Numbered from the stretch's first letter, positions 8,178 to 59,031 are shown. The stretch is 64,000 nucleotides of DNA from Candidatus Aenigmatarchaeota archaeon (GCA_016432325.1 CP066684.1:265018-329017); one strand, 5' to 3'. Numbers and translations are program-made. The notes: generated by a model from the sequence alone, not told the origin.

Positions 8178-8190
8178 AATTATTTAAAAT
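8178..8190 (-). promoter_or_regulatory. Candidate TATA box for thpR (leaderless transcript)
   Basis: AATTATTTAAAAT lies 19-31 bp upstream of the thpR ATG at 8159 on the minus strand. Confidence 0.3.
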
Positions 8191-20598: not shown

Positions 20599-20664
20599 CG
20601 TCTGAGACTTGACCCAATACACCATATGGAAAGGGTTTAATAGCTTTGTCCATTCACATTATAC

Positions 20665-21759: not shown

Positions 21760-22889
21760 TGGTTGCTCCAAAACACACGAAAGATGATGTAGACAGTTAT
21801 CGGGAGGCCGTTTTGGCTAATATTGTTTTTAAAAAGTATTTGAAAGAAATATGGAATGTTGGATACGATCTATATTTCGGTGCTAGACTAGTCTATGATA
21901 AAGACAAACCAGCGGTAACGCCCGATTTGTTTCTTAAAGGTACTTCGAGTAATGATATTGTAGGGGATATTAAACGTTCTTTGCCGTCAAATTTCCCTAA
22001 CAGTTTGGAGTCCAAAAACTATATGGAATGGGCCAGGGGGGAAGGTGGAAAAGGTTTCGTTATGCAGATGTTGGATGTAAGTCTAACACAAAAGTTAAAG
22101 AAATATGATAGCGAATTTCTCAATTGTACGAACCCACATGATATTTTATTTATCCTGCACGAAAGAGCACAGAGAACATACATGCTCTGGAAGAGACATT
22201 TACCGTACATCCCACGAAACAATCTGGTTGGTCTACAATATCATGTTTCTAGAGGGTCTAGCGTCAAAACACTTAATATCGGAATACTAGACGGACAGTT
22301 CTCAGATCAGGGCTTAGGCGAATTCTTCAGAGATAACCCAATAGCTTGGCACTTTAACGAAGAATCCCAGCTAATCGGAGAATACAAAATTGCTGTAGTT
22401 GACGAGGGCCATCAGCCACCAAAAGAATATGTGATGCTCATTCTGTGGCAAAACATTTTTGATGAAATTCTGAGAAACAAATACTCAGAAAGTCTTTTGG
22501 ATAGAGTGAAAATACTAGAACAAGGATTAAATCCAGTTATAGTTGTGGATTTGGATACCATTATAGAATACCTTAGTAAATATTATATATTACCATATTA
22601 TGATACCGCCGACAACTCACAGGACACAAGGAGACAGTTCACGAGAAGCCTTGTAAAAGATGCAATGAACTCATTTACTGAAATTGATATAACCGATGTA
22701 ACGAAGGTAGACGGGGGAACAAATCCCGCGTATAAAATAGTCTATCAACCGCTGTCTAAAGGACAGGATGCCTTGCAAGTCTTAATAGACGCGTTGTCTG
22801 ATGCGGGAATTTTAGAAAAGGAAGTGGTCGATATCCCGAGACAGATTGATCTAACATCATTTACCGATAAAGACAGTGATACTCGATAG
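21759..22889 (+). CDS. Hypothetical protein (376 aa) with an N-terminal PD-(D/E)xK-like nuclease motif
   Basis: TPDLFLKGTSSNDIVGDIKR (PD...D-I-K); translationally coupled to the upstream ORF. Confidence 0.4.
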   Translation: MVAPKHTKDDVDSYREAVLANIVFKKYLKEIWNVGYDLYFGARLVYDKDKPAVTPDLFLKGTSSNDIVGDIKRSLPSNFPNSLESKNYMEWARGEGGKGFVMQMLDVSLTQKLKKYDSEFLNCTNPHDILFILHERAQRTYMLWKRHLPYIPRNNLVGLQYHVSRGSSVKTLNIGILDGQFSDQGLGEFFRDNPIAWHFNEESQLIGEYKIAVVDEGHQPPKEYVMLILWQNIFDEILRNKYSESLLDRVKILEQGLNPVIVVDLDTIIEYLSKYYILPYYDTADNSQDTRRQFTRSLVKDAMNSFTEIDITDVTKVDGGTNPAYKIVYQPLSKGQDALQVLIDALSDAGILEKEVVDIPRQIDLTSFTDKDSDTR

Positions 22890-23275
22890 AGTGTAGAGAG
22901 TTAGAGGAGTAGCCAATTGAAGTCCCAAAAATAAGGTATATAAACATCCTCACCAATCAATTATTCAATATGCTCCCCAGTCTTGTACGCCGGCTCGTCC
23001 GGCGGCAACACTGGGTTATTCTCTCTTTTCCTTGATGCATTCTAAGGCTTCTAGAAGGCTGTGTTTGACGCAACGACTAGACTACGAATTTCGATGTATC
23101 AAACAATTTAGATTTTATTCTAACTCCACCTTCTGCTTCCACCTGGGCCACTCGGTGATTCCCCCTTTCACTCGTAATTCTCCGTGCCTTGGAAATGTTG
23201 GTGGCCTGAACCAGAACCTTTCCTAATCTATGGACGTTAATCCAATCATCACTGTCCACGGGAAAAGTTACTGGG

Positions 23276-23674
23276 TTATTCATCTGTCTCACTCATTTTT
23301 CCTGCTTTTACAAACTTGTCAAAAACTCGTTGTACCTGCTCGCCAGAAAGGGCCAATTCTGTGGAGACAAAAAAGACGGATAGTTTCGTATTACCAGCAC
23401 TCTTTTCTCTCAATATTAGTTGTGTTATCTCCTTTTCTGCTTCCATATCACTTATCCTCCTGTCTTTAGTGATCGATTCGTGCATCCCATGCATTTCATG
23501 TTGCCTTCTCAATGAGACTACCTCTTGGCGAAGGAAATCAACCTCATCCTCAAGACTTCTCAGTCTCTGTTGTTGCGCCCTAAAAACAGGCAGAGGGATG
23601 GATAGACGCTCGAAAACGGTTTGTATAGGCTCGTCTTCTCCAACAATGTCTATTGCACGTCTGATGGTTGCCAT
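23276..23674 (-). CDS. Hypothetical coiled-coil protein (132 aa)
   Basis: AT-rich ORF downstream of the integrase on the same strand. Confidence 0.3.
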   Translation of the reverse strand: MATIRRAIDIVGEDEPIQTVFERLSIPLPVFRAQQQRLRSLEDEVDFLRQEVVSLRRQHEMHGMHESITKDRRISDMEAEKEITQLILREKSAGNTKLSVFFVSTELALSGEQVQRVFDKFVKAGKMSETDE

Positions 23675-23678
23675 ACAT

Positions 23679-23942
23679 TCACCTACTTATCATACTCTTT
23701 ACCTTTTGCAAAAACTCCGGATCTGGTGATTCTATGTGCAGTATTTTGTCTTCAACTTCCTTCTTGTTTTGGTGGCTCATTATCAATGGAATGGGCATGT
23801 TGTTTTTTACCTTTACCAGAACAATGCTCGCTGGCATTATATCTTTATCCATTTGAGATAGATTAGACGCGAATTCTTTATCAAAGAGATCCCCAAGGCC
23901 CACACCATGCAATCGCACGCTCTCTATTTGTTCCATGAACAC
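23679..23942 (-). CDS. Hypothetical protein (87 aa)
   Basis: ORF between the integrase and 23276-23674, same strand. Confidence 0.3.
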   Translation of the reverse strand: MFMEQIESVRLHGVGLGDLFDKEFASNLSQMDKDIMPASIVLVKVKNNMPIPLIMSHQNKKEVEDKILHIESPDPEFLQKVKSMISR

Positions 23943-24048
23943 TCACCGTATATTATTGGTGCTACAGCCACTTAAACTGAAGACGGGGTGGTTTTACATC
24001 ATTCCGAAGTCTTTATTTAAGGCTATGTATCATTGACCATAGTGTTTT

Positions 24049-24065
24049 ATATAACACTGTTATAT
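24049..24065. repeat. 17-bp perfect palindrome ATATAACACTGTTATAT (copy 3 of 4)
   Basis: Overlaps the integrase stop codon at the AT-to-GC compositional break. Confidence 0.6.
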
Positions 24066-25238
24066 TCTCTCCCTCATCCTCTCTTCCATCCTGTCCATGA
24101 GAGCCGTCACGAGCTCCTCGGATATAACGAAGCCCTTGTTGCTTTCCATCGTCTGCGCCTTCGCCTTCTCCGAAATCGGATGGCGGCATCGCACGCACCA
24201 GTTCCTGTCCATAGTATTAGACGTGCCGCAGACGCCGCACTCTTTCGGCCGCAGATGGCCGTTCGTCTCCTCCTTCTTCGGAACGAGGCCGTGAATCCTC
24301 AATATAGCCTCGTCCATCTGCGCACCGCTGAGATGGACATAGATTGCGGCCATCTTTGAAGCGCCGGTCCAACCAAGATAAGCCTTCATCTGCTGTTCGG
24401 TCAGCTCGGTGGCCAGCCGCGTCGCGGCCGTGTGGCGGAAGAGGTGTGGGTGCAGCCTTTTCCGATAGCCGCTGCGCTCCTTGATGCGCCTCAGCAGCGT
24501 TTTGAACGTCGAGTAGCTCATCGGTCTGCCGTAGTCCGTCAGCCACAGCGCGTCGTCGCCGTTTTTCGTCGGGTGGGATTCCAAGTAGGCGGACAGGGCT
24601 GGAATGGAGGAAACGATGCGCACGCGCCGCGGGCCGGTCTTGCCGCGGACGTGGATGACGCCGCCGTACTCGTCGAAGGCGGCGTCCTTGTATCTCATGG
24701 AGAGGAGTTCCCCTATCCGCACGCCGCTCTCCCAGAGGGTCCACAGCATGGCGCGGTCGCGCGCCGAACGCGCGTGACGCAGAAGCAGCCGCAGGTCGTC
24801 CTCGCTCACCAAATCCTCGGGAAGCTTTCTCTTGTTCGAGGGCTCGTTCGTCTTTATCCATCGAACCTCCGGCGGGATTTCCTCGTCGTTGCCACGCAGC
24901 CACTTGAAGAAGCGTTTGATGCACGCCCGCTGATCGACCTTCGTTCGCTCTGTCCAGTCGCGCTTCTCCTGTATGCGGCTGACGAGTTCCATCAGATCGT
25001 CCTTGTCCATCTCATCGAAGTTCTTGTGCGCGAGGCGGCCGATGTTGGTCATGCGGATGGCGTAGAAGACCTGGCGATAGACACTGCCCCCGCCGACGCC
25101 GAACTGCCTTATGAACTTGAGAAGCAACTCCCTGTTGGGCTCTGTTATCCGCCCGTCCGTCCGCAGGCGGCGCATCGCCGACTCAAGGCGGTTGTCTATG
25201 TTGTAGATGTCGTGGACTTCAAGACTCTGCTGCGCCAT
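24060..25238 (-). CDS. int: Tyrosine recombinase / phage-type integrase
   Basis: 392 aa; C-terminal catalytic region HLFRHTAATRLA...LGWTGASKMAAIYVHL with the R..H..R..Y residues. Confidence 0.8.
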   Translation of the reverse strand: MAQQSLEVHDIYNIDNRLESAMRRLRTDGRITEPNRELLLKFIRQFGVGGGSVYRQVFYAIRMTNIGRLAHKNFDEMDKDDLMELVSRIQEKRDWTERTKVDQRACIKRFFKWLRGNDEEIPPEVRWIKTNEPSNKRKLPEDLVSEDDLRLLLRHARSARDRAMLWTLWESGVRIGELLSMRYKDAAFDEYGGVIHVRGKTGPRRVRIVSSIPALSAYLESHPTKNGDDALWLTDYGRPMSYSTFKTLLRRIKERSGYRKRLHPHLFRHTAATRLATELTEQQMKAYLGWTGASKMAAIYVHLSGAQMDEAILRIHGLVPKKEETNGHLRPKECGVCGTSNTMDRNWCVRCRHPISEKAKAQTMESNKGFVISEELVTALMDRMEERMRERI

Positions 25239-31328: not shown

Positions 31329-32894
31329 TTATTTGGCGTCGGCCTCGGTCTCTCCCGAGTAGTATGATATCTTGTTCAGGTCCATGTCCCAGACAGGCTT
31401 GCCGCAGAAGAGCTTGCCTTGGTTGCACATGGGGCCGACGCCCGCGCCTTTCCTGAGATGGCACGGCGGGCCCAGGAAGTTCCCTATCAACGGCGTCACT
31501 TCCCTTACTTGGTTCACTTCGTCGCGGTTTATCTTCCACTCCTCTTCCTGAGTGCGCAGGCACGTGCGCAACTCCCACTTGTGACGGGCGCCAAACAGGT
31601 CCGTGGTCTCCTCTATTCGCAAAGCCGTCGCGTTGGGAAGAAGGTACGCGACGAACTCCCTGCTCTCTCCGTTATCCAGAAGATAGCGGACATCTTCCCA
31701 AGTTCCTTCCATGGCATCGTTGAATATCTGAAGCGCTTCTGCGTTGCCTGCTATCAGTTCCGGCGCAACCGTGTCGGGTTCGCGCGTGAGGACGTCCTGC
31801 AGCCGCGGCCTTATTCCTTTCGTCGCCCTGTGCCTCTGCCCCTGCGAGTCGGCTGTGTGGCTGAGCTTCTTGCGGAACGTGTACGCGACCTGTCCCATCG
31901 CGTACGAGGCCGGGTCCATGTGCTCGAGTTCTGCGGGGTGCAGGAGCGTGCGGTTATTGGCGGGGTTCATCACCAGGCCTATCAGCTGTTCGTCCGTCGC
32001 CACGCCGTCAGCCGCGCCCAAGTGAATGCGGACCGCATCGGCAAGGATGCGATCGCCGTCAGGCGTGTGCGTGACGAGTTTGGAACGGTAAGGATTGAGT
32101 TTCTTGTCGAACTGTGCGTTGTAAGCCGCGACGTCGACGTCGCCCAAGAGCTTGCGGCCCTTGAACGAGGGGCCGTCCTGCCTCTGCAACGGCGCTCCTA
32201 TATGATCGAAGAGTTCTGGCTCTGTCTTCCTTGCCTCGGCCATCATCTGTTCGACAACGGTCTGCGCCTCCCACGGCACGTTGGTGAGCTTGGGGCTGAG
32301 CGCCAGCCTGTTGAGCGTCGAAAGATTCACCGTATAGTACATCCCGGAAAGCGCCGCGATGGGCAGAACATAGCGCGCCGTCTCGATGGCCTGCTTGGGC
32401 ACGAGCTGGGTGTCCCGCTTGGAGAGCTTCCCTCTGGCCTCGGATTTGATGCCTTTCAACTCCTCTTCGAGAATGGGAATCAGCGCAGCATAAGCGTCCC
32501 ATTGGGCGCGGATTCTCTTTCGCGTCCTGTCCCTGCTGTCAGAGTCGTGAAACGGAGGTATTCGTACTGTCGCGGTCCTGTTAGATACGTATCTCTGGCT
32601 TATCTGGTCTGTAACGTACGTAGACGGAAGATGGAAGAAATCGTGGATGAGGTTTCTGGAGACGTTCTCCAGAGCGAACGTAAAAGTCGGGTGGCCGAAC
32701 ACCTGGTGGCCGGAGTTAAACGTATCCTGTACGACTTTCTTCAGCGCCTCGTCCGGGACCTCGTCCGGAAGGACTATCCTGTTCGCAGCCCGCGGAGAAT
32801 AGCAGCTCTTTGCCGATGCGCCTGCGATTCTTAGAGGTTCGTTGGGATATGCGATCAGCTCTACCTTCGACGGCGGATCTAGGACAGACGACAT
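31329..32894 (-). CDS. thyX: FAD-dependent thymidylate synthase ThyX-like, apparently tandem-duplicated (two ThyX-like halves)
   Basis: 521 aa. The N-half has GHQVFGHPTFTFALENVSRNLIHDFFHL...ISQRYV and ARYVLP; it is ThyX-like but RHR is replaced by FHL. The C-half carries QRHRATKG and ARHKWELR...EEEWKI. Confidence 0.5.
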   Translation of the reverse strand: MSSVLDPPSKVELIAYPNEPLRIAGASAKSCYSPRAANRIVLPDEVPDEALKKVVQDTFNSGHQVFGHPTFTFALENVSRNLIHDFFHLPSTYVTDQISQRYVSNRTATVRIPPFHDSDSRDRTRKRIRAQWDAYAALIPILEEELKGIKSEARGKLSKRDTQLVPKQAIETARYVLPIAALSGMYYTVNLSTLNRLALSPKLTNVPWEAQTVVEQMMAEARKTEPELFDHIGAPLQRQDGPSFKGRKLLGDVDVAAYNAQFDKKLNPYRSKLVTHTPDGDRILADAVRIHLGAADGVATDEQLIGLVMNPANNRTLLHPAELEHMDPASYAMGQVAYTFRKKLSHTADSQGQRHRATKGIRPRLQDVLTREPDTVAPELIAGNAEALQIFNDAMEGTWEDVRYLLDNGESREFVAYLLPNATALRIEETTDLFGARHKWELRTCLRTQEEEWKINRDEVNQVREVTPLIGNFLGPPCHLRKGAGVGPMCNQGKLFCGKPVWDMDLNKISYYSGETEADAK

Positions 32895-36244: not shown

Positions 36245-36480
36245 ACCAAGGATAGCGGCGCCCGCTATATAAAACTGCCGTCGTAAGCCTCTTATGCGCT
36301 TTTTAAAGCTATCCGCACAGGTTTATTGCGGCGATGATTGAACCGCTCCAGAGCGAGCCTCCCCTACGGTAAAGTGGAGGGGCTGTGAGCATCAAGGTAA
36401 CTCATGAGCCGCTATTCCATCATATGAAGCTCAACGCTACCCGCTTCGAAGTTTTTGTGTAGCTCATGAGCCGCTAAATC

Positions 36481-40967: not shown

Positions 40968-41618
40968 TTGAAGCTCAGTAACGACATCTTCCTGCTCGAT
41001 GGCGCGGAACCGGACTCGAACGTCTTTCTTATCGATGGAGAACTGCTCATTGACACCGGCTCCGGCCTGTACATGCAGGAAACTCTCGACCAGATGGCCG
41101 AATACGGATTAAACCCGAAGGCGATAAAGCTCATCGTCATCACGCACGCCCACTTCGGCCACTGCGGCGCGATAAAGGAGTGGAAGAAGCTTACAGGCGC
41201 GAAGGTCGCCGTGCATCAAGGAGACCTTGACGCGCTCGAAAAGGGCGAAGGGGTGTTCTACGACGAGGACACCGTAGATTACGCAGGCGTACGGCCGGAC
41301 GTCGTGCTCAAGGACGGAGAGACCGTAAAGACAAGGAACCACGCGTTCACCGTCGTTCATGCGCCCGGCCACAGTCCTGGTTCTATATGTCTGTGGGAAC
41401 CGAAGCAACGCGTGCTCGTCTCCGGAGACCTGCTGTTCCTGGACGGGGTGGGCGACCAGATACCGACGGCCGACGCGAGCGCGCTCGCCGCGTCGCTGAA
41501 GAAGGTCAAGAAACTCGGAGACATTGAGATACTGCTGCCGGGCCACGGGGCCCCGGCGCACAAGAGGAATCCTTATGCCAAAGACGCCATCAAAAAAGCT
41601 CTCGCGCAAATCAAGTAA
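40968..41618 (+). CDS. MBL-fold metallo-hydrolase
   Basis: ITHAHFGHCG (variant HxHxxH), HAPGHSPGS, SGDLLF and LLPGHG motifs. Confidence 0.55.
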   Translation: MKLSNDIFLLDGAEPDSNVFLIDGELLIDTGSGLYMQETLDQMAEYGLNPKAIKLIVITHAHFGHCGAIKEWKKLTGAKVAVHQGDLDALEKGEGVFYDEDTVDYAGVRPDVVLKDGETVKTRNHAFTVVHAPGHSPGSICLWEPKQRVLVSGDLLFLDGVGDQIPTADASALAASLKKVKKLGDIEILLPGHGAPAHKRNPYAKDAIKKALAQIK

Positions 41619-41862
41619 GCCCGCAGGCGACGGTCTGAAAGACCGCATCCTCGCCGCCATCTTTCTCGCAGGGGAAGCGGGCGTGCCCTTGGAGAAGATA
41701 GCGACCGTCCTGCAGGCCGATCTTGAAGAAGAGGGCGTCGCCGAGACGCTGGAAACGGTCCTCGTGGAGATGTCCAACGACGGTCTGGTTTCCGCGGACG
41801 GGCAAGACAGCTACTTCATCGAAGACAAGGGCTTCAGGAGAATCGAGAAATTCCCGGACTGA
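41575..41862 (+). CDS. Small hypothetical protein (possible winged helix)
   Basis: ORF trimmed to an internal Met. Confidence 0.25.
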   Translation: MPKTPSKKLSRKSSKPAGDGLKDRILAAIFLAGEAGVPLEKIATVLQADLEEEGVAETLETVLVEMSNDGLVSADGQDSYFIEDKGFRRIEKFPD

Positions 41863-41914
41863 TGTTCTGCGCAATAGATAACTTTATATATCGACCGAAC
41901 TCCTTTCTGTCCAG

Positions 41915-41962
41915 ACACAACAGGTTGTGGTTGCGCACGTTCGCGAACACAACAGGTTGTGT
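41915..41962 (+). promoter_or_regulatory. Tandem NrdR boxes upstream of nrdR-nrdJ
   Basis: ACACAACAGGTTGTGG at 41915-41930 and ACACAACAGGTTGTGT at 41947-41962 are 16-bp palindromes of the ACAC...GTGT type. Their starts are 32 bp apart and the second ends 20 bp before the nrdR GTG. TTTATATAT lies upstream at 41883-41891. Confidence 0.6.
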
Positions 41963-41981
41963 TCTAAGAAAGTAGTAACAG

Positions 41982-42437
41982 GTGCCCGGTCTGAACTGTC
42001 CTTATTGCGCCCACACGGAAACGCGTGTCGTAGACAAACGCGAATCCGAGGACGAATCGACGCGCCGCAGGCGCGAATGCACGTCGTGCGTCAAGCGTTT
42101 CACCACGTACGAGCGCGTGGAGTCGCTTGACATGACGGTGGTAAAGCGGAACGGCGCCAAGGAACCCTTTATGAGGGAGAAGATTCTGATGGGCATGAAA
42201 AGGGCGTGCGAGAAGAGGCCTATAACGGACGCCGAAATCGAAGAAGCAGTCGACTCCGTGGAACGCGTGCTCCGCAGGCGCAAATCCACAGAGGTCAAGA
42301 GCACGGACATCGGGGACCTTGTGCTGAGAAAGCTCAAAGCGCTCGACGAAGTCGCATACATAAGGTTCGCGTCCGTATACCAGTCATTCGAAAGCGCCAA
42401 GGCCTTCGCAAAAGAAGTGGCGGCGCTGAAAATATAA
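41982..42437 (+). CDS. nrdR: Transcriptional repressor NrdR (zinc ribbon + ATP-cone)
   Basis: GTG start; CPYC...CTSC zinc ribbon; ATP-cone VVKRNGAKEPFMREKI...VAYIRFASVYQSFES. Confidence 0.85.
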   Translation: MPGLNCPYCAHTETRVVDKRESEDESTRRRRECTSCVKRFTTYERVESLDMTVVKRNGAKEPFMREKILMGMKRACEKRPITDAEIEEAVDSVERVLRRRKSTEVKSTDIGDLVLRKLKALDEVAYIRFASVYQSFESAKAFAKEVAALKI

Positions 42438-42443
42438 GGGGGG

Positions 42444-45400
42444 ATGTTCATGAAAGCACAGGCGGCGCAGGCCGTGAAAAGCGCCGAGAAGGCGGGGAGC
42501 GGTTTGCGAATCGACAGGCGTTACACTCAACAGGGCGCGAGCGTTTTTGACCAGATCGAATGGACCACGCGCTCGTCCATCATAGCAGAACCGGACGGCA
42601 CCGTCGTCTTCAAATTCGACAAGGTTGAGGTCCCTGCGGCCTGGTCCCAGCTCGCGACAGACATTCTCGCCTCGAAATATCTCAAGCGCGCGCAAGTGAA
42701 AACCCAGGATGGCACCGTAGGCTCGGAAACCAGCGCGCGGCAGGTCGTCTCGCGAATAGCGACCACGTTCCGCTGGTTCGGTGAGAAGTACGGCTATTTC
42801 GCGTCCGCAGACGACGCGCAGGCGTTCGAGGACGAACTGACGTATCTGCTCATAACACAGCGCGCGGCCTTCAACAGCCCTGTCTGGTTCAACGTCGGCC
42901 ACTGGCACTATCACAACATAAACCAGGACGGCGACAACTGGGCATGGGACATGGAGAACGGTCGCGTCTATCAGGAGAACAACTACTACGCCCGCCCGCA
43001 AGGAGCGGCGTGCTTCATCCAGAGATGCGAGGACTGGATAAACGGACCCATGGGTATAATGGACCTCGTGGACAAGGAAGCGCGTCTCTTCAAGGGCGGC
43101 TCCGGCACAGGCACGAACTTCTCGCGCGTACGCGGCAGAGACGAACCGCTGTCGGGAGGGGGCGTTTCGAGCGGACTGATGAGCTTCCTTAAGATTCTCG
43201 ACACCAACGCAGGCAGCATCAAGTCAGGAGGAACCACGCGCCGCGCGGCCAAGATGGTCATCCTCGACGCGGACCACCCTGACATAGAGGAGTTCGTCGG
43301 GTGGAAAGCGCACGAGGAAAAGAAGGCCAAGCTGCTGTTGCAGGCCGGGATCGGCCTCGATTCTATGGGCCGCCCGGACTTCAACGGCGAGGCGTATACT
43401 ACCGTTTCCGGCCAGAACTCCAACAATTCCGTGCGCGTTACAGACGAATTCATGAACGCCATTCGCGAAGACAAGGAGTGGAATCTCATCGCGCGCAGGA
43501 GCAAGAAGACATGGAAGACCGTTCGTGCGAAGGAACTCTGGAACAAGATTTCCCGATGCGCATGGGAGTGCGCGGACCCCGGAGTGCAATACGACGATAC
43601 GATACAGAGATGGCACACCTGCAAGAACACGGACAAGATATACGCGACAAACCCGTGCTCGGAGTTTGTGTTCCTTGACGAAACGTCATGCAATCTCGCG
43701 TCCGTGAACCTTCTGAAGTTTTTCGACGATACGAAATTCGACGTGGACGCGTACAGGTACGCGTGCCGCGTGATGTTCATCGCGCAGGAGATAGGCGTCG
43801 ACCTCTTCTCCTACCCGAGCCGCACGATTGCGGAGACCACGCACAAGACGCGGCCGCTCGGTCTCGGTTACGCGAATCTCGGAACGCTTTTGATGTGCAT
43901 GGGCCTGCCGTACGACAGCGCAGAAGGCCGCGCTATGGCAGGCGCGCTGACCGCGCTCATGACAGGAGAGGCCTATCTTACGTCCGTTGAGATGGCCCGC
44001 GTCAAAGGCCCTTTCGCACTGTACGAGGAGAACAGGGAGCCGATGCTCGGCGTAATGAGAATGCACCGCGACTCAACGTACGAGCTCTTCCGCACAGGAA
44101 GCCCGATACCCGAAAAGATGGCCGGCGCGATGCCGGAGAAATGGTTCGAGGATATAGCAAAGACCGCTGTGGAAGTCTGGGACGATGTCGTCGAGGAAGG
44201 GAGCAAGCACGGCTTCAGGAACGCGCAGGCGACGGTCCTCGCGCCCACAGGAACGATAGCGCTGCTGATGGACTGCGACACCACAGGCGTCGAACCGGAC
44301 TTTAGCCTCGTCAAGTGGAAGAAGCTCGCTGGCGGAGGATATTTCCGCATCATCAACCAGTCTGTTCCACGCGCGCTGCGCAACCTCGGCTATACGAACG
44401 AACAGGTCAAGGTGATAGAAGAGCACGTGCTGGGCAAGAGGACGGCCGACGGGACCGTGCTCGAACTGGGCAAGGAGACGATAGAAGGCGCTCCGCACGT
44501 ACGCACGGAACACTACGCGGTCTTCGACTGCGCCAACAGGTGCGGCGACGGCGTCCGCTTCATAGCCCCTGAAGGCCACATACATATGATGGCCGCGTCA
44601 CAGCCTTTCCTCTCGGGCGCGATATCGAAGACCGTGAATCTCCCTTCTGACGTTACGGTGGAAGACGTGGCACGCACGTACGAACTGGGATGGAACCTCG
44701 GCCTCAAGGCCATAGCGCTCTACCGCGACGGCTGTAAAGCATCGCAACCGCTCAACGCCAAGGCCGCCATAAAGGCCGAAGCGAAGGAAGAGGGGCCTAC
44801 GTGGGGAGAGATGGTACGCCTCCCAAAGTTCACGGACAACATCATCAAGCGCGAAGTCGCCGTGATGGACCCGAAGCTCGGCAGAATAAAGATGCACATA
44901 ATCTTCTGCGAGGACGACCGCGGAAGGCCCATGGAAGTTTTCATGGCTGTCGGCCGCAACGCCTCGTCGGTCAACGAGTTCTGCCGCGACCTTGGAATCG
45001 CATGGTCCAAGCAGCTGCAGCTCGGCCGCCCTGCCAAGGATCTTGCCCTTGACATGGTTGGAGAGGTTGGGGCAATCGCAGGCATGACAGACCACCCGCT
45101 CTTCAAGACGTGCATGTCTGTGAAGGACCTCGTCGGCAAGATGACCCTCTACGAGTACTACGGAAAGACCGATTTCATAAATCCCGAAGTTCTGGAGACG
45201 TACCAGAAGTCGCTGAACTATGTCAAGCCCCGCTGGCAGGTCCTTGAGGAACTGCACCACCTGCGTTCGCTGCGGGAAGCGCGAAAGGAAAAGCCGCTGA
45301 CCGCGTTCACAACGCCTGCGGCGGCAAAGGACAGCGTGGACCCGCACGAAATAGCGAAGAAGTTCATGGCTGACGCGCCTGACTGCGACGTCTGCGGCTT

Positions 45401-45467
45401 CAAGACCGTGCGCAACGCCGCGTGCTTCAAGTGCCTTAACTGCGGGAACAGCATGGGATGTTCGTGA
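42444..45467 (+). CDS. nrdJ: Ribonucleoside-diphosphate/triphosphate reductase, class II (adenosylcobalamin-dependent), large form
   Basis: 1007 aa; NPCSEFVFLDETSCNLASVNL active-site loop and other class II hallmarks; 6-bp spacer after nrdR. Confidence 0.85.
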   Translation: MFMKAQAAQAVKSAEKAGSGLRIDRRYTQQGASVFDQIEWTTRSSIIAEPDGTVVFKFDKVEVPAAWSQLATDILASKYLKRAQVKTQDGTVGSETSARQVVSRIATTFRWFGEKYGYFASADDAQAFEDELTYLLITQRAAFNSPVWFNVGHWHYHNINQDGDNWAWDMENGRVYQENNYYARPQGAACFIQRCEDWINGPMGIMDLVDKEARLFKGGSGTGTNFSRVRGRDEPLSGGGVSSGLMSFLKILDTNAGSIKSGGTTRRAAKMVILDADHPDIEEFVGWKAHEEKKAKLLLQAGIGLDSMGRPDFNGEAYTTVSGQNSNNSVRVTDEFMNAIREDKEWNLIARRSKKTWKTVRAKELWNKISRCAWECADPGVQYDDTIQRWHTCKNTDKIYATNPCSEFVFLDETSCNLASVNLLKFFDDTKFDVDAYRYACRVMFIAQEIGVDLFSYPSRTIAETTHKTRPLGLGYANLGTLLMCMGLPYDSAEGRAMAGALTALMTGEAYLTSVEMARVKGPFALYEENREPMLGVMRMHRDSTYELFRTGSPIPEKMAGAMPEKWFEDIAKTAVEVWDDVVEEGSKHGFRNAQATVLAPTGTIALLMDCDTTGVEPDFSLVKWKKLAGGGYFRIINQSVPRALRNLGYTNEQVKVIEEHVLGKRTADGTVLELGKETIEGAPHVRTEHYAVFDCANRCGDGVRFIAPEGHIHMMAASQPFLSGAISKTVNLPSDVTVEDVARTYELGWNLGLKAIALYRDGCKASQPLNAKAAIKAEAKEEGPTWGEMVRLPKFTDNIIKREVAVMDPKLGRIKMHIIFCEDDRGRPMEVFMAVGRNASSVNEFCRDLGIAWSKQLQLGRPAKDLALDMVGEVGAIAGMTDHPLFKTCMSVKDLVGKMTLYEYYGKTDFINPEVLETYQKSLNYVKPRWQVLEELHHLRSLREARKEKPLTAFTTPAAAKDSVDPHEIAKKFMADAPDCDVCGFKTVRNAACFKCLNCGNSMGCS

Positions 45468-45504
45468 ACTCAATCCTTTTATTTCGGCTGAACGAACTAT
45501 ATCC

Positions 45505-47316
45505 ATGCTCCTAGACCGCCCGCCAAAGACGAAGCTCGCGTTAACGGACAACGCGAAGCGCGTGCTCCAGAAGCGCTACCTGAGGAAGGACGTCCGCGGG
45601 CGCGTCGTCGAGACGCCGGCGCAGATGTTATGGCGCGTCGCGCGCAAAATCGCCTCTGTGAACGCGCGTTACGGAGACCGCTCAACAGAACGCGAAGCCA
45701 GGGAATTTTACGGTATCATGGCGCGCCTCGAATTCCTGCCCAACTCGCCGACGCTCATGAACGCGGGCACGCCTTTGCAGCAGCTGTCCGCGTGTTTCGT
45801 ACTGCCTGTCGAAGACTCGCTGGACGGCATCTACGACGCGCTCAAATTGCAGGCGCTGATACAACAGACAGGCGGAGGCACAGGATTCTCGTTCTCGCAT
45901 CTGCGACCCGAGGGGGACGTAGTCAGGGAGACGGGCGGAGTCGCGTCAGGACCCGTGTCATTCGCACGCGTGTTCGACTGCAGCACGGACGCGATAAAGC
46001 AGGGCGGCCGCAGGCGCGGCGCCAACATGGGCATCCTGCGTTACGACCACCCGGACATCGTGAAGTTCGTCGACGCGAAGCTCGCCGAAGGCGCGCTGAA
46101 AAACTTCAACGTCTCGGTGAGCGTCACGGACGACTTCATGCGGCGCGCGGAGCACGGCCAGAGCTTCAAGCTCATCAACCCCCGCACGCGCAAATCGGAA
46201 GGCGTCCTGAACGCGGAAAGGCTGCTCGACAGGATATGCGAGAACGCGTGGAAGAGCGCCGAACCCGGAATGGTATTCGTCGATCGTATCGAGCGTGACA
46301 ATCCTACCCCGAAGATAGGCCGCCTCGAGGCGACCAATCCGTGCGCCGAACAGCCTCTGTTACCATACGAGGCGTGCAATCTGGGCTCCATAAACCTGAC
46401 TAAGTGCGTGCGCGGGTCTCTTGGGCGGGCGCGCATCGATTGGAAGAAGCTTGCGTATCTCGTGGACACGGGGGTGCGCTTCCTTGACAACGTAGTTGAC
46501 GCGTCTGTCTTCCCAGACCGCCGCATAACGGCTGTCGTGCGCGGCAACAGGAAGATAGGCCTCGGCGTCATGGGTTTCGCTGATGCGCTCGTGTTGATGG
46601 GAATGCCTTACGACTCCAAGGAGGCGCTGGAGACCGCAGAACGCATCATGAAGTTCGTAGACGAACATGCGAAGGAAACCTCTATCCGAATAGCCGAAGC
46701 GCGCGGCCCCTTCCCCAACTTCAGCAGGAGCATCTATGCGAAGGGAGATCCGATACGCAACGCGACGCGAACGACGATAGCGCCAACGGGAACGATAAGC
46801 ATGCTCGCGGACTGCTCATCGGGCATCGAACCGCTGTACTCCGTGTACTATACGAAGAACGTACTGGAAGGCGAGCACCTCTCCGAAATCAACCCGTATC
46901 TTGTCCTGCTGGCAAAGAAGCGCGGGTTCTATTCCGTGAAGTTCGTCGGAAGCCTTCGCGGCCGCCACACCATACGCGACATGAAAGGGGTTCCGGAGGA
47001 CGTGCGCCGGCTGTTCGTAACGGCTCACGACGTGACGCCAGAACGGCACGTCCGCATGCAGGCCGCGTTCCAAAAACACACGGACAACGCGGTGTCAAAG
47101 ACGATAAACCTTCCTGCAGACTCGAGCGCCCGGGATGTCAAAAATGCGTACGTTCTTGCGTGGCGATTGGGCTGCAAGGGCATAACGGTTTACCGCGAAG
47201 GCACACGATTGGGCCAGGTCATAACAGCAGGAGGCGTCTGCGAGGAGTGCGGCGGGACGTACGCAACTATTGAAGGTGCCTTTGTCTGCAAGACATGCGG
47301 AGACTCGGGAGAATGA
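45505..47316 (+). CDS. nrdJ: Class II ribonucleotide reductase, second paralogue (603 aa), with a C-terminal Cys4 zinc ribbon
   Basis: ATNPCAEQPLLPYEACNLGSINL; C-terminal CEECGGTYATIEGAFVCKTCG. Confidence 0.8.
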   Translation: MLLDRPPKTKLALTDNAKRVLQKRYLRKDVRGRVVETPAQMLWRVARKIASVNARYGDRSTEREAREFYGIMARLEFLPNSPTLMNAGTPLQQLSACFVLPVEDSLDGIYDALKLQALIQQTGGGTGFSFSHLRPEGDVVRETGGVASGPVSFARVFDCSTDAIKQGGRRRGANMGILRYDHPDIVKFVDAKLAEGALKNFNVSVSVTDDFMRRAEHGQSFKLINPRTRKSEGVLNAERLLDRICENAWKSAEPGMVFVDRIERDNPTPKIGRLEATNPCAEQPLLPYEACNLGSINLTKCVRGSLGRARIDWKKLAYLVDTGVRFLDNVVDASVFPDRRITAVVRGNRKIGLGVMGFADALVLMGMPYDSKEALETAERIMKFVDEHAKETSIRIAEARGPFPNFSRSIYAKGDPIRNATRTTIAPTGTISMLADCSSGIEPLYSVYYTKNVLEGEHLSEINPYLVLLAKKRGFYSVKFVGSLRGRHTIRDMKGVPEDVRRLFVTAHDVTPERHVRMQAAFQKHTDNAVSKTINLPADSSARDVKNAYVLAWRLGCKGITVYREGTRLGQVITAGGVCEECGGTYATIEGAFVCKTCGDSGE

Positions 47317-47849
47317 AGTACTACACGGGCGCAGGCGACAAGGGCAAGACGACCATTACTGGCAAGACCGGAGTGGCCAAGGACTCGCCGCGCGTGGAGG
47401 CCTACGGAAATCTGGACGAGCTTGAAGCGATTCTTGGAATAGCGATATCGCATGCCGATGGGCACAAAGACGTAGTTTCCATTCTCAAGAAGATGCAGAA
47501 CCTGCTGCACGTCGCCTCGGCCGAGCTGGCCGATCCGAAAGGCAAGCGCGGCATGCGCATCGCAAAGGAACATCTGAAGTGGCTCGAAGATGTGTGCGAC
47601 TCCTACGGCGCGAAGACGCGGCCTCTTTCCACGTTCGTACTGCTCGGCGGCTCGCCGGCTGGAGCGCGGCTGCACTTCGCGCGCACGGTCGCACGGCGCG
47701 CTGAGCGTTCGCTCGTCGCGTTGTGGAGGAAGGAACGCGTGTCAAAAGAGATGCTCGCGTTCATCAACCGCCTGTCTTCGGCGCTGTTCGTGCTGGCCCG
47801 TTACGTGAACGAACGCGATGGCTACAAGGAAGAGAGCCCCTCATACTGA
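47313..47849 (+). CDS. ATP:cob(I)alamin adenosyltransferase, PduO type
   Basis: MKYYTGAGDKGKTTITGKTGVAKDSPRVEAYGNLDELEA; its ATG overlaps the nrdJ2 stop (ATGA). Confidence 0.7.
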   Translation: MKYYTGAGDKGKTTITGKTGVAKDSPRVEAYGNLDELEAILGIAISHADGHKDVVSILKKMQNLLHVASAELADPKGKRGMRIAKEHLKWLEDVCDSYGAKTRPLSTFVLLGGSPAGARLHFARTVARRAERSLVALWRKERVSKEMLAFINRLSSALFVLARYVNERDGYKEESPSY

Positions 47850-47891
47850 CTCTTATATACGCGCGCACGCAAGTCGACCCGAGGACACGAC

Positions 47892-48098
47892 ATGCACGTT
47901 TCTGTCGACAGCGGGCTCTGCATAGGATGCGATCTGTGCGCACGCCTCTGTCCACTCACGTTTTCCATGGACGGCAAGAAGGCCGAGGTGCGCGACCCTC
48001 TGGGCCACGCCCGCGAGGACGTTTCAAAGGTTGCGGACAAGTGTCCTACGGGCGCGATACGCGTTTCTCACGCTGAGTGGACGAAGCATCTCCGTTAG
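47892..48098 (+). CDS. Small [4Fe-4S]/[3Fe-4S] ferredoxin
   Basis: CIGCDLCARLCP ... CPTGAI. Confidence 0.6.
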   Translation: MHVSVDSGLCIGCDLCARLCPLTFSMDGKKAEVRDPLGHAREDVSKVADKCPTGAIRVSHAEWTKHLR

Positions 48099-48559
48099 CT
48101 TTTGTACACGTTTGCTCTTGAAGGATTTCTCGTCTTCTCCTTCGCGGTCTGTGCGCCAAAGAGTCTTCCGAAGTCCTGTATGAACTTCGGCGACATATCC
48201 AGCGGCCCCTCCAGTCTTGAGCCGTGTATCATTATCTCGTGGTTTCTGTCGCCTGTCGCGTCGCGGATGATGTAGTCTGTCAGTGGATAAGGGCTGTCAA
48301 GAACCGTCCAACCGTAAGCGGTCGCGAGTTTCTTCAGACCGTCTTCACGCTCCTGCGTCCACGACCTGTCGCTAGGATCGGTTGCCATGTACGCAATAAG
48401 CTGCATCCCCTTGGCTCCTGGCGCGCGTCTGGCTTCTATGCGAAAGTCTCCGTCCGCTCCGACCTTTTTCACCTCGCTCTCTATGACTGGAGCCGACTTG
48501 TTCTCTATTGAAGAAAGCCTGTCGACGAGTTCCTTCGCCTTGCGCACTGTGGCTGCCAT
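48095..48559 (-). CDS. Hypothetical protein (154 aa)
   Basis: ORF only. Confidence 0.3.
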   Translation of the reverse strand: MAATVRKAKELVDRLSSIENKSAPVIESEVKKVGADGDFRIEARRAPGAKGMQLIAYMATDPSDRSWTQEREDGLKKLATAYGWTVLDSPYPLTDYIIRDATGDRNHEIMIHGSRLEGPLDMSPKFIQDFGRLFGAQTAKEKTRNPSRANVYKS

Positions 48560-48622
48560 GGAACGTCCTCCTGCTCGTATCTGATATTCGCAGTGATATA
48601 AGTCTTGCTCAGACGCCGAACC

Positions 48623-49282
48623 TTAAATACGTTTCGAATAACCCTCCTTGTAGTACTTGCATATCTTGCTTAGTGGACATATGGAACACTTGGGGCCCAC
48701 GGGTCTGCATAAATCGCGGCCGAACTTGATGAGATCTGTATTGATTAAATGCCATTTAGATTTGGGAATGTTGTTTTCCAAGACGCGCTTCACGTCCTCG
48801 ACGCTCGCCTCTTCGTCAATCAGCCCGATCCTCTTGGGCACGCGATTGCAGTGCGTATCGATTGCTATCGATGGTATTCCGTGGCCGTACATCAGAACAA
48901 TGTCCGCGCACTTGGGGCCGATGCCGTAAAGAGTCATGAGTTCATGGCGCGTACGCGGCACGCGCCCGCCGAACTCTTCCATAATCTGCCTGCAAGTCTC
49001 GTGAATCTTCTTCGCCTTTTGCTTGTACGGGCCCGAGACGCGGATAAGCCGTTCGAGTCGTGCGCGCGGCAGCGCCAGAATCTCCTGTGGCGTCGACGCA
49101 ACGGCGACAAGGGCCGAAAAGGCTCTCTCGGTCTGCTCGTCGCGGGTGCGCTGGGACAGGATGCATGAGATGATTACGGAGAACGGGTCCTCTTTATTGG
49201 CGGCTAGGTTCTGGACGTCCCCGTAGCGGCGGACGAGAAAGTCTACCATAATATCGGTTTTCTCTCGAACTGACAGCCCCAT
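48623..49282 (-). CDS. nth: Endonuclease III (Nth), HhH-GPD with a [4Fe-4S] loop
   Basis: HhH-GPD region; CRPVGPKCSICPLSKIC (C-x6-C-x2-C-x5-C). Confidence 0.8.
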   Translation of the reverse strand: MGLSVREKTDIMVDFLVRRYGDVQNLAANKEDPFSVIISCILSQRTRDEQTERAFSALVAVASTPQEILALPRARLERLIRVSGPYKQKAKKIHETCRQIMEEFGGRVPRTRHELMTLYGIGPKCADIVLMYGHGIPSIAIDTHCNRVPKRIGLIDEEASVEDVKRVLENNIPKSKWHLINTDLIKFGRDLCRPVGPKCSICPLSKICKYYKEGYSKRI

Positions 49283-54651: not shown

Positions 54652-54705
54652 AATGGTTTAACGCAGTTAAAAGATATAAACGGCGCGTCGTTTTCAATAT
54701 GGAGA

Positions 54706-58989: not shown

Positions 58990-59031
58990 TGTTACCATCA
59001 CGTTTAAGTAGTTAACGGTCCTTCTTTTATC

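What the first reader, a model, noticed from the sequence alone, without database searches (positions are those of the whole stretch)
41915..47849. NrdR-controlled B12-dependent nucleotide-reduction operon (nrdR - nrdJ - nrdJ paralogue - PduO adenosyltransferase) in an otherwise archaeal-looking context
Two 16-bp ACAC...GTGT palindromes with starts 32 bp apart sit immediately upstream of nrdR, matching the canonical tandem NrdR-box arrangement. They are followed by two different class II RNRs (1007 aa and 603 aa, the latter with a C-terminal Cys4 ribbon) and the adenosylcobalamin-making PduO-type transferase (ATGA-coupled). NrdR is mainly bacterial, so its presence beside archaeal-type genes suggests horizontal transfer of the whole regulon. 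Two tandem NrdJ paralogues are unusual.
Basis: partly seen in the sequence, partly recalled or inferred. Interest (0 to 1): 0.55.

Follow-up and report, generated by a model that had tools for sequence, protein, structure and literature searches.

The report
NrdR operator on archaeal RNR genes
A small DPANN archaeon carries the bacterial-style NrdR repressor and its two DNA boxes, placed just downstream of an archaeal TATA box in front of nrdR and a B12-dependent ribonucleotide reductase; this is a clear but expected member of a known regulatory system.

Summary
Two 16-bp boxes (41915-41930, 41947-41962; 16-bp linker) precede a bona fide nrdR. After it come two class II RNR genes that are only 29% identical, and a PduO adenosyltransferase joined by an ATGA overlap. 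The contig is a GenBank Aenigmatarchaeota MAG, so the archaeal context is real.

The boxes are conserved. Thirteen DPANN loci with nrdR show the same layout: TATA, 24-29 nt, box 1, 16 nt, box 2, then nrdR and a class II RNR. Most genes in the window are leaderless, with the ATG 21-22 nt after the TATA. That puts the nrdR transcription start near 41912 and the boxes at about +4 to +51. NrdR bound there would block archaeal RNA polymerase.

- A block transfer of the whole regulon is not supported. NrdR and its operator are long established in DPANN, each gene has different nearest relatives, and GC content is not anomalous.
- A single four-gene operon is doubtful. nrdJ-short has no Shine-Dalgarno sequence and has a conserved T-rich, TATA-like element exactly 21 nt before its ATG. 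It probably has its own box-free promoter.

NrdJ-long carries the full six-Cys C-terminal domain; NrdJ-short has only a Cys4 ribbon. Archaeal NrdR is already reported (22% of archaeal genomes). Verdict: new member of a known kind, modest interest.

The parts
41883..41890 (+). Archaeal TATA box (TTTATATA) of the nrdR promoter
   Evidence: Exact TTTATATA occurs 7 times in the window against 0.55 expected. In at least 8 other window genes a TATA-like octamer ends 21-22 nt before the ATG. A TATA element lies 24-29 nt upstream of box 1 in the 13 DPANN loci, a 7-8 of 8 match in 11 of them.
41910..41917 (+). Predicted transcription start (about 41912), inferred from TATA spacing
   Evidence: Inference from the leaderless genes of the window, where the TATA 3' end plus 21-22 nt gives the A of the ATG. 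Not measured.
41915..41930 (+). NrdR box 1, ACACAACAGGTTGTGG
   Evidence: It has C4, A6, A8, T11 and G13 of the six conserved positions named in PMC13584703, with T9 replaced by G. It is homologous to box 1 of the DPANN loci.
41931..41946 (.). 16-bp linker between the boxes
   Evidence: The linker is 16 bp in all 13 DPANN loci. The canonical length is 15-16 bp (PMC13584703, PMC12051234).
41947..41962 (+). NrdR box 2, ACACAACAGGTTGTGT
41972..41980 (+). GTAGTAACA, a short element conserved after box 2 in the closest relatives; function unknown
   Evidence: Alignment A3: GTAGTAACA in the window, L039 and L041, and GTGGTGACA in L040, while the flanks differ.
41982..42437 (+). nrdR. GTG at 41982; the homologous start is CTG at 41991, preceded by GGTG at 41981-41984, as in GenBank QQG40321.1 (148 aa)
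   Evidence: TIGR00244 177.9 bits, PF22811 and PF03477. E = 4e-39 to solved NrdR structures. CxxC...CxxC, D15, R17 and RRRR(25-28) are present (compared with PMC9110341).
42450..45467 (+). nrdJ-long: class II RNR with the full C-terminal Cys-rich domain (alternative start 42444)
   Evidence: NF005122 1091.6 bits and TIGR02504 587.5 bits. E = 2.5e-232 to 7B9P. The active-site motifs ACF, NPCSE and SCNL are seen. The tail is C-x2-C-x9-C-x2-C-x2-C-x5-C, the spacing of S. nassauensis Cys-920/923/933/936/939/945 (PMC5704485). GGGGGG lies 6 nt before ATG 42450.
45476..45483 (+). T-rich TTTTATTT: candidate TATA box for a leaderless nrdJ-short mRNA and/or oligo-T terminator of nrdR-nrdJ-long
   Evidence: It ends 21 nt before ATG 45505, and no Shine-Dalgarno sequence is present. 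TTTTATTC sits 21 nt before the nrdJ-short ATG in relative L050, where the upstream gene is different (CYTH). It matches the TATA consensus in only 5-6 of 8 positions. Inference.
45505..47316 (+). nrdJ-short: class II RNR with a Cys4 mini-ribbon tail and no Cys-rich domain body
   Evidence: TIGR02504 697.3 bits. E = 2.4e-116 to T. maritima NrdJ 1XJK/1XJE, with the query Cys, Asn and Glu aligned to chain residues C134, N320, C322, E324 and C333. The tail is CEEC-x12-CKTC.
47313..47849 (+). PduO-type ATP:cob(I)alamin adenosyltransferase, ATGA-coupled to nrdJ-short
   Evidence: TIGR00636 176 bits and PF01923. E about 1e-32 to solved PduO-type enzymes. ATGA at 47313-47316. GenBank QQG40175.1, 178 aa. 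PduO also follows nrdJ-short in L050 and lies downstream of nrdJ in L001.
47892..48098 (+). Small 4Fe-4S ferredoxin. Possibly linked in function, as an electron source for cob(II)alamin reduction or for the RNR, but it has its own TATA-like CTTATATA at 47852-47859
   Evidence: PF13370, the sequence and the TATA scan. The functional link is speculation.

Best explanation
This is the ribonucleotide-reduction locus of a DPANN (Aenigmatarchaeota) archaeon. A canonical NrdR repressor autoregulates a transcript that encodes nrdR and the Cys-rich-domain-bearing class II reductase NrdJ-long.

The operator is a standard NrdR site: two 16-bp boxes with a 16-bp linker. It is wired to an archaeal promoter. 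It starts about 24 nt after a TTTATATA box, at roughly +4 to +51 relative to the inferred transcription start.

By analogy with the solved bacterial mechanism, NrdR loaded with dATP and ATP forms a tetramer whose two Zn-ribbon pairs bind the two boxes. Here that would block RNA polymerase from loading or clearing next to TBP/TFB, rather than occluding -35/-10 elements. When ATP dominates, NrdR oligomerises into forms that do not bind DNA and the genes are expressed.

Downstream, nrdJ-short (Cys4 tail only) and the translationally coupled PduO adenosyltransferase most likely form a second, leaderless transcription unit with its own weak TATA-like element and no NrdR boxes. PduO makes the adenosylcobalamin cofactor from salvaged corrinoid.

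Shown: sequence features, family membership, conservation of the boxes and of the promoter layout. Inferred: the transcription start, repression, nucleotide sensing, and the split into two transcription units.
For: - Boxes are real and non-random.
- NrdR passes the equivalog cutoff and keeps its Zn ligands, D15, R17, the RRRR motif and the ATP-cone (residue roles from PMC9110341).
- The boxes match 5 of the 6 conserved positions and the 15-16 bp linker rule (PMC13584703).
- Thirteen DPANN loci from Aenigmatarchaeota, Woese-, Pace- and Nanoarchaeota and a 'Methanosarcinales' MAG all carry box1-16 nt-box2 directly upstream of nrdR. A TATA element lies 24-29 nt before box 1, a 7-8 of 8 match in 11 of the 13.
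- nrdR is followed by a class II RNR in every such locus long enough to tell.
- TATA-to-ATG spacing of 21-22 nt in at least 8 leaderless genes of the window calibrates the transcription start.
- nrdR and nrdJ-long are 6-12 nt apart with a GGGGGG Shine-Dalgarno sequence.
- nrdJ-short lacks a Shine-Dalgarno sequence and has TTTTATTT 21 nt before its ATG. The same holds in relative L050 despite a different upstream gene.
- Both NrdJ proteins keep the catalytic Cys/Asn/Glu residues.
- Host identity comes from GenBank. An Aenigmarchaeota relative, L044, has eIF2-alpha, Nop10, PAC2 and ribosomal S2 next to nrdR-nrdJ.
Against: - No transcription start, transcript or binding data exist; everything functional is by analogy with bacterial NrdR.
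- The box centre is A-G inside a G+C-rich CAGG, whereas the bacterial consensus is A-T in an A+T-rich core thought to help DNA bending (PMC13584703). Affinity could therefore be lower or the specificity shifted.
- The internal promoter is only a 5-6 of 8 TATA match and could be just a terminator or chance. Read-through from the nrdR promoter would put all four genes under NrdR.
- Only 64 kb of an 875-kb genome was seen, so other RNR genes or boxes may exist.
- The nrdR start codon is uncertain (GTG 41982 or non-canonical CTG 41991).
Confidence: 0.8

Rival explanations
1. This is one NrdR-controlled operon. A single transcript from the 41883 promoter covers nrdR, nrdJ-long, nrdJ-short and pduO (perhaps also the ferredoxin), so NrdR governs both reductases and cofactor activation.
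For: All genes are on the same strand with short gaps of 6-12, 37, -4 and 42 nt. No strong (7 or more of 8) TATA lies between nrdJ-long and nrdJ-short. The terminator scan found no + strand stem-loop terminator in the region. In bacteria, NrdR sites precede all RNR operons (bioRxiv 10.1101/2025.03.28.645925).
Against: nrdJ-short has no Shine-Dalgarno sequence, unlike the internal genes nrdJ-long (GGGGGG) and pduO (GGGAG). A T-rich element sits exactly 21 nt before its ATG, which is the leaderless spacing of this genome, and it recurs in L050 behind a different upstream gene. Oligo-T runs are typical archaeal terminators (own knowledge).
Confidence: 0.35
2. The nrdR-nrdJ-nrdJ-pduO block with its boxes entered this archaeon recently, in one piece, from a bacterium.
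For: NrdR is far more common in bacteria (77% against 22% of genomes, PMC13584703). Haloarchaeal nrdR-nrdAB operons are accepted transfers from bacteria (PMC3019208). DPANN and CPR NrdR sequences interleave in an NJ tree.
Against: - The operator is embedded in an archaeal TATA/leader layout shared by several DPANN lineages.
- The window NrdR forms a 100%-bootstrap clade with other Aenigmatarchaeota-like loci that share synteny (MBL hydrolase, small ORF, nrdR) but carry a different downstream NrdJ.
- The nearest NrdJ-long and NrdJ-short relatives are archaeal or archaeal-looking and differ from each other.
- GC content is not anomalous.
Confidence: 0.05
3. The two palindromes act as RNA hairpins in the 5' leader (an attenuator or stability element) rather than as a protein operator.
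For: If the transcription start is near 41912, both boxes are transcribed. The leader folds at -26.9 kcal/mol with z = -2.2.
Against: Any pair of identical palindromes folds this way. What is conserved across DPANN and bacteria is the NrdR pattern (ACAA...TTGT cores and a fixed 16-bp linker), not compensatory stem changes. The boxes always co-occur with nrdR.
Confidence: 0.03
4. The contig is mis-assigned or chimeric, and the locus really belongs to a CPR or other bacterium.
For: The nearest non-DPANN NrdR relatives are CPR bacteria, and MAG binning errors are common.
Against: The locus lies inside a single 874,869-bp contig. TATA-plus-leaderless promoters occur throughout the window, including beside the operon. 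No sigma-70-like promoter enrichment was found in the region scanned, 41500-48700. SecD matches archaeal SecD models best. The same operon was assembled independently from three other runs at 100% identity.
Confidence: 0.03

Closest known systems
Streptomyces coelicolor nrdRJ operon and its NrdR operator (PMC9110341, PMC13584703)
   Same: nrdR is followed directly by a long (about 960-1000 aa) class II NrdJ with the six-Cys C-terminal domain. Two 16-bp NrdR boxes with a 15-16 bp linker precede nrdR, giving autoregulation. NrdR has the Zn ribbon, D15, R17, RRRR and the ATP-cone.
   Different: The host is an archaeon. The promoter is a TATA box, and the boxes lie downstream of it, over and after the inferred transcription start, instead of over -35/-10. 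The box centre is AG inside CAGG rather than A-T. A second NrdJ and PduO follow.
Haloarchaeal nrdR-nrdAB / nrdR-nrdBA operons (Lundin et al. 2010, PMC3019208)
   Same: NrdR is encoded next to an RNR in an archaeal genome.
   Different: Those are class I enzymes with clear bacterial donors, and some are plasmid-borne. Here the enzymes are class II, the lineage is DPANN, and there is no sign of a recent block transfer.
Genomes with two NrdJd of which only one carries the Cys-rich domain (Frankia, some Alphaproteobacteria; Loderer et al. 2017, PMC5704485)
   Same: A domain-bearing NrdJ and a domain-lacking NrdJ are found in the same genome.
   Different: Here the two are adjacent, only 29% identical and of different subfamilies. 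The short one keeps a Cys4 ribbon. The same pairing recurs in a relative (L050) with a different domain-bearing partner.
Thermotoga maritima NrdJ (1XJE) and PduO-type adenosyltransferases (e.g. 3CI1, 1RTY)
   Same: NrdJ-short aligns over its whole barrel with the catalytic residues conserved. PduO aligns full-length with solved PduO-type enzymes.
   Different: None of functional note can be seen from sequence.

Membership tests
NrdR transcriptional repressor | Full-length match to the NrdR equivalog model | tested here: met
   TIGR00244 177.9 bits against a cutoff of 124.65, covering profile positions 1-147 of 147.
NrdR transcriptional repressor | N-terminal Zn ribbon with two CxxC motifs, plus the DNA-contact residues D15, R17 and the RRRR motif | tested here: met
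   PF22811 57.1 bits. In the 148-aa protein: C3/C6, C30/C33, D15, R17, R25-R28. Residue roles are from PMC9110341.
NrdR transcriptional repressor | C-terminal ATP-cone | tested here: met
   PF03477 79.8 bits, residues 51-137; VVKRNG...EPF...EK motif.
NrdR transcriptional repressor | dATP/ATP-dependent tetramer binding to the boxes, and repression | not testable with these tools
   Needs protein biochemistry or in vivo work.
NrdR operator (tandem NrdR boxes) | Two partially palindromic 16-bp boxes with conserved C4, A6, A8, T9, T11 and G13 | tested here: met
   5 of 6 positions in both boxes (T9 is G), and 7 of 8 palindromic pairs. A central AG also occurs in E. coli nrdAB box 2 (PMC13584703).
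NrdR operator (tandem NrdR boxes) | Linker of 15-16 bp (or one helical turn more) | tested here: met
   16 bp in the window and in all 13 DPANN loci.
NrdR operator (tandem NrdR boxes) | Located in the promoter of an RNR operon and overlapping the polymerase site or transcription start | tested here: inconclusive
   The site is upstream of nrdR-nrdJ. Its position relative to the start is inferred from TATA spacing only; no start has been measured.
NrdR operator (tandem NrdR boxes) | Conserved in orthologous loci | tested here: met
Class II (adenosylcobalamin) RNR, NrdJ | Match to the NrdJ equivalog model, for both proteins | tested here: met
   TIGR02504 587.5 and 697.3 bits against a cutoff of 399.95.
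Class II (adenosylcobalamin) RNR, NrdJ | Thiyl-radical Cys, redox Cys pair, and Asn/Glu of the active site | tested here: met
   NrdJ-short aligns with T. maritima chain residues C134, N320, C322, E324 and C333. NrdJ-long has ACF, NPCSE and SCNL at the homologous places.
Class II (adenosylcobalamin) RNR, NrdJ | C-terminal Cys-rich domain with a six-Cys array | tested here: met
   Met for NrdJ-long: C-x2-C-x9-C-x2-C-x2-C-x5-C, the same spacing as S. nassauensis (PMC5704485). Not met for NrdJ-short, which has Cys4 only and no domain body.
PduO-type ATP:cob(I)alamin adenosyltransferase | Match to the PduO N-terminal domain model and to solved PduO-type enzymes | tested here: met
   TIGR00636 176 bits against a cutoff of 108.45; E about 3e-32 to 1RTY and 3CI1.
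Single NrdR-controlled four-gene operon | Co-transcription of nrdR, nrdJ-long, nrdJ-short and pduO | tested here: inconclusive
   Same strand and short gaps, but a conserved TATA-like/oligo-T element lies 21 nt before the nrdJ-short ATG and there is no Shine-Dalgarno sequence.

The most novel reading that the evidence does not exclude
NrdR has been fitted onto the archaeal basal transcription machinery across DPANN lineages with a fixed layout: TATA, about 25 nt, box 1, 16 nt, box 2, so that the operator lies at about +4 to +51. In this lineage NrdR controls only the Cys-rich-domain-bearing NrdJ. A Cys4-tailed NrdJ and PduO are expressed from a separate box-free leaderless promoter. That would mean a division of labour between the two reductases, possibly with the six-Cys domain of NrdJ-long supplying electrons to NrdJ-short in trans.
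Probability: 0.25. Interest if true: 0.5.

Novelty: new member of a known kind. Interest (0 to 1): 0.3.

Why it matters
NrdR has been studied only in bacteria, and reviews still disagree on whether archaea have it: 'absent', 'rare', or '22% of genomes'.

This locus and its 12 DPANN counterparts give a concrete, conserved operator-promoter design. It can be used to test how an ATP-cone nucleotide sensor represses an archaeal, eukaryote-like RNA polymerase.

It also gives a tidy case of an NrdJ with the Cys-rich domain encoded beside one without it. That bears on the open question of how class II RNRs are re-reduced. It does not reveal a new kind of system.

Tried and rejected
- tRNA and Rfam scans of the window, and of eight related loci, found no regulatory RNA near the operon. 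A B12 riboswitch is therefore not involved.
- The look-up of the GenBank NrdR (P0001) in the contig index failed. Provenance came instead from cluster look-ups.
- The genome-contig scan did not return the source genome itself, only relatives at 56% identity or less.
- The sigma-70 promoter and stem-loop terminator scans were uninformative for an archaeon.
- A first Biopython bootstrap run timed out and was replaced by a numpy-based NJ run. Deep nodes stayed unresolved, so no direction of DPANN/CPR transfer is claimed.
- I considered whether the odd right half of Woesearchaeota box 1 (GTGGTAA) and the window's GTAGTAACA mark a second regulator site related to the GGTAACA repeats in nrdR-less archaeal nrdJ leaders. 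The box-1 variant CCACAACCTGTGGTAG also occurs in unrelated high-GC metagenome loci, and the GGTAACA-N5-GGTAACA repeat occurs only in the 70-74% NrdJ-long clade. The link is unproven and is reported only as a side observation.
- No literature pairing NrdR with DPANN names was found in the searchable library.

Full report
**1. What is in the sequence**

The intergenic region 41863-41981 contains two boxes: ACACAACAGGTTGTGG at 41915-41930 and ACACAACAGGTTGTGT at 41947-41962.
- Their starts are 32 bp apart, so the linker is 16 bp.
- Within three mismatches, these are the only two sites in the 64-kb window. Four strand matches were found against 0.27 expected, and none of 100 shuffles reached four.
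- A weighted scan for NrdR-like box pairs over the whole window found three pairs above threshold; this pair scored highest (16.0 and 17.0 of 20), and the other two barely passed (13-14).

Downstream lie four genes.
- **nrdR.** TIGR00244 scores 177.9 bits against a cutoff of 124.65, and the Zn ribbon and ATP-cone are both found.
- **A 1005/1007-aa class II RNR.** NF005122 1091.6 bits; TIGR02504 587.5 bits.
- **A 603-aa class II RNR.** TIGR02504 697.3 bits.
- **A PduO-type adenosyltransferase.** TIGR00636 176 bits. Its ATG at 47313 overlaps the preceding stop as ATGA.

The two reductases are only 29% identical, so they are old paralogues of different subfamilies and not a recent duplication.

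**2. Host**

Ten proteins from across the window are entries of a GenBank MAG named Candidatus Aenigmatarchaeota archaeon, on one 874,869-bp contig. They include QQG40321.1 (NrdR), QQG40173-QQG40175 (NrdJ, NrdJ, PduO) and QQG40176 (ferredoxin). The operon was also assembled at 100% identity from three other sequencing runs.

Independent signs of an archaeon:
- The octamer TTTATATA is enriched in the window, 7 copies against 0.55 expected.
- In at least eight genes a TATA-like octamer ends 21-22 nt before the ATG. This is the signature of leaderless archaeal mRNAs.
- SecD matches archaeal SecD models best.
- A related Aenigmarchaeota locus (L044) has eIF2-alpha, Nop10, PAC2 and ribosomal S2 beside nrdR-nrdJ.

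No tRNA or Rfam family lies in the window.

**3. Is it an NrdR operator?**

According to Shahid et al. 2026 (PMC13584703), an NrdR site is two partially palindromic 16-bp boxes separated by 15-16 bp, with C4, A6, A8, T9, T11 and G13 highly conserved. Both window boxes have five of these six (T9 is G), and the linker is 16 bp. A central AG also occurs in box 2 of E. coli nrdAB (same paper).

The protein keeps the four Zn-ligand cysteines, D15 and R17 (the base-specific contacts in the S. coelicolor cryo-EM structure), the RRRR motif and the ATP-cone (PMC9110341).

**4. Conservation**

A scan of species-representative genomes with the NrdR protein returned 38 loci. Seven of them are archaeal: Woese-, Pace- and Nanoarchaeota and one 'Methanosarcinales' MAG. 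Contig look-ups added closer relatives: L039-L043 (69-73% identical NrdR) and an Aenigmarchaeota genome, L044-L046.

Every one of these archaeal loci has a box pair with a 16-bp linker immediately upstream of nrdR. Two examples are CCACAACCTGTTGTGC-16-ACACAACCTGTTGTAT (L041) and ATACAACCTGTGGTAA-16-ATACAATATATTGTAT (L005).

The centre dinucleotide is CT in most relatives and AG in the window. These are reverse complements within an otherwise perfect palindrome, as expected for a site read by a symmetric dimer.

In all loci long enough to tell, nrdR is followed by a class II RNR.

**5. Promoter layout and likely mechanism**

In the 13 DPANN loci a TATA element (TTTATATA or TTTAAATA) ends 24-29 nt before box 1. 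It is a perfect or 7 of 8 match in 11 of the loci. In the window it is TTTATATA at 41883-41890, 24 nt before box 1.

The leaderless genes of this genome calibrate the start: the TATA 3' end plus 21-22 nt gives +1. The nrdR start is therefore near 41912 and the boxes occupy about +4 to +51. Unlike most genes here, nrdR has a leader, which consists largely of the operator.

The mechanism has been solved in bacteria. NrdR loaded with both dATP and ATP forms a tetramer with two DNA-binding sites about 80 A apart, which binds the two boxes. ATP alone drives dodecamers that cannot bind DNA (PMC9110341). At this position such a complex would sit where archaeal RNA polymerase must load next to TBP/TFB. 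That is the usual way archaeal repressors act (my own knowledge of MDR1, LrpA and Phr; not tested here).

The layout is shown. The transcription start, the binding and the repression are inferred.

**6. One operon or two?**

nrdR and nrdJ-long are separated by 6-12 nt, with a GGGGGG Shine-Dalgarno sequence 6 nt before ATG 42450. pduO is ATGA-coupled to nrdJ-short and has a GGGAG just upstream.

The 37-nt gap before nrdJ-short is different.
- It has no Shine-Dalgarno sequence.
- It contains CCTTTTATTTCGG, and the T-rich octamer ends exactly 21 nt before ATG 45505. This is the leaderless spacing of this genome.
- In the 74%-identical relative L050 the gene upstream of nrdJ-short is a CYTH-domain gene, not an RNR. 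TTTTATTC still sits 21 nt before the ATG.
- The element matches the TATA consensus in only 5-6 of 8 positions, and it could also serve as an oligo-T terminator.

I judge it more likely than not that nrdJ-short and pduO have their own box-free promoter. NrdR control is then well supported only for nrdR and nrdJ-long.

The ferredoxin gene at 47892-48098 has its own CTTATATA at 47852-47859.

**7. The two reductases**

- **NrdJ-long** resembles the solved long NrdJ 7B9P (E = 2.5e-232). It ends in C-x2-C-x9-C-x2-C-x2-C-x5-C. This is exactly the spacing of the six cysteines of the S. nassauensis Cys-rich domain, which binds zinc and shuttles electrons to the active site (PMC5704485).
- **NrdJ-short** resembles T. 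maritima NrdJ. The residues that align to its C134, N320, C322, E324 and C333 are conserved. It ends about 25 residues after the barrel, in CEEC-x12-CKTC: a Cys4 ribbon without the redox pair.

Loderer et al. note genomes with two NrdJd in which only one carries the Cys-rich domain, and that absences of the domain occur only beside a domain-bearing copy.

The same pairing occurs in relative L050. There the order is a six-Cys NrdJ of another subtype, then CYTH, the Cys4 nrdJ-short, CutA1 and PduO. The pairing therefore looks functional rather than accidental.

Against strict dependence, roughly 600-aa Cys4 homologues exist in Methanomassiliicoccales. I could not check whether those genomes have a partner.

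**8. Origin**

The block-transfer idea is not supported.
- NrdR is reported in 22% of archaeal genomes (PMC13584703) and is annotated in many DPANN MAGs.
- In an NJ tree the window NrdR forms a 100%-bootstrap clade with L039-L041. DPANN and CPR sequences occupy one part of the tree and interleave, and the deeper nodes are unresolved.
- The closest NrdR relatives share upstream synteny (MBL hydrolase, small ORF, nrdR) but carry a different NrdJ subtype downstream.
- The nearest NrdJ-long homologues (70-74% identity) sit on high-GC, archaeal-looking contigs with no nrdR and no boxes.
- NrdJ-short is nearest to Methanomassiliicoccales enzymes, at 60%.
- The operon GC (0.585-0.598) matches its surroundings.

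The picture is an old DPANN nrdR-operator module whose downstream reductase gene has been exchanged. An ancient bacterial, perhaps CPR-related, origin of NrdR remains possible but is unresolved.

**9. Novelty**

The genes are already annotated in GenBank, and archaeal NrdR is acknowledged in the literature, though inconsistently. It is called 'absent' in bioRxiv 10.1101/2025.03.28.645925, 'rare' in PMC9110341 and PMC12176259, and '22%' in PMC13584703.

I found no paper linking NrdR to DPANN, and none describing archaeal box-promoter layout.

This is a new member of a known kind. It is well suited as a test case but not surprising to a specialist.

Noticed in passing
L051:6870-7006, L052:5914-6094, L053:4655-4805, L134:2515-2716, L135:2835-3001: The five closest NrdJ-long homologues (70-74% identity) lie on high-GC archaeal-looking contigs with no nrdR and no NrdR boxes. 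They share a conserved 140-200 nt leader: ATAGGTAACA-N5-GGTAACA, then TGGTAACAAAACG..TAA, then an anti-Shine-Dalgarno-like (G)AAATCCTCC or CTTCTCC that RNAalifold pairs with the CGGAGGGA Shine-Dalgarno sequence in all five. There is no Rfam hit. This is a candidate new cis-regulatory leader, or a repeat-binding regulator site, of archaeal nrdJ. Only five sequences are available and covariation is weak.
   Followed up: partly
window 41972-41980: GTAGTAACA lies just after box 2 and is conserved in L039 and L041 (GTGGTGACA in L040) while the flanks diverge. It resembles the GGTAACA repeats above. Function unknown.
   Followed up: partly
window 17986-25238: A low-GC island (0.38-0.41 against about 0.56) carries an 870-aa Eco57I/MmeI-type methyltransferase with a PglX-like domain, followed by two ORFs without family matches. 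A tyrosine integrase (24060-25238, - strand) lies next to it. This is probably an integrated mobile element with a restriction-modification or defence system.
   Followed up: no
window 31329-32894 (-): ThyX of 521 aa with two Thy1 stretches, about twice the usual length. It is another dNTP-pathway gene, and no NrdR box pair was found near it.
   Followed up: no
window 41982-41993: The nrdR start is ambiguous. GTG at 41982 gives MPGLNCPYC. Relatives start with ATG at the position of CTG 41991, which GenBank uses (148 aa, MNCPYC) and which lies 6 nt after GGTG. This is a possible non-canonical CTG start.
   Followed up: partly
whole window, e.g. 36266-36273(-), 54673-54680(-), 8181-8188(-), 59003-59010(+): This genome uses a very regular leaderless design: a TATA-like octamer ends 21-22 nt before the ATG of at least 8 genes.
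   Followed up: yes
proteins P0060, P0031, P0038, P0061, P0084: An NrdR labelled 'Nanoarchaeia' sits inside a 100%-bootstrap clade of Woykebacteria and Patescibacteria (CPR) sequences. Either this is recent CPR-DPANN exchange or a binning error.
   Followed up: no
proteins P0243, P0244, P0252, P0253: Several close NrdJ-long homologues are 1415-1527 aa long and carry intein/LAGLIDADG domains (PF14528, PF14890). The window copy has no intein.
   Followed up: no
L001:6900-10654: A MAG labelled Methanosarcinales has nrdR with a box pair, an NrdJ 48% identical to NrdJ-short, and a PduO homologue downstream. The NrdR-nrdJ-PduO association therefore extends beyond DPANN, or the contig is mis-binned.
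   Followed up: no
window 41524-41862 (+): A small ORF with no family match lies between the MBL hydrolase and nrdR. The same position holds a small ORF (80-102 aa) in L039-L043, so the synteny is conserved.
   Followed up: no
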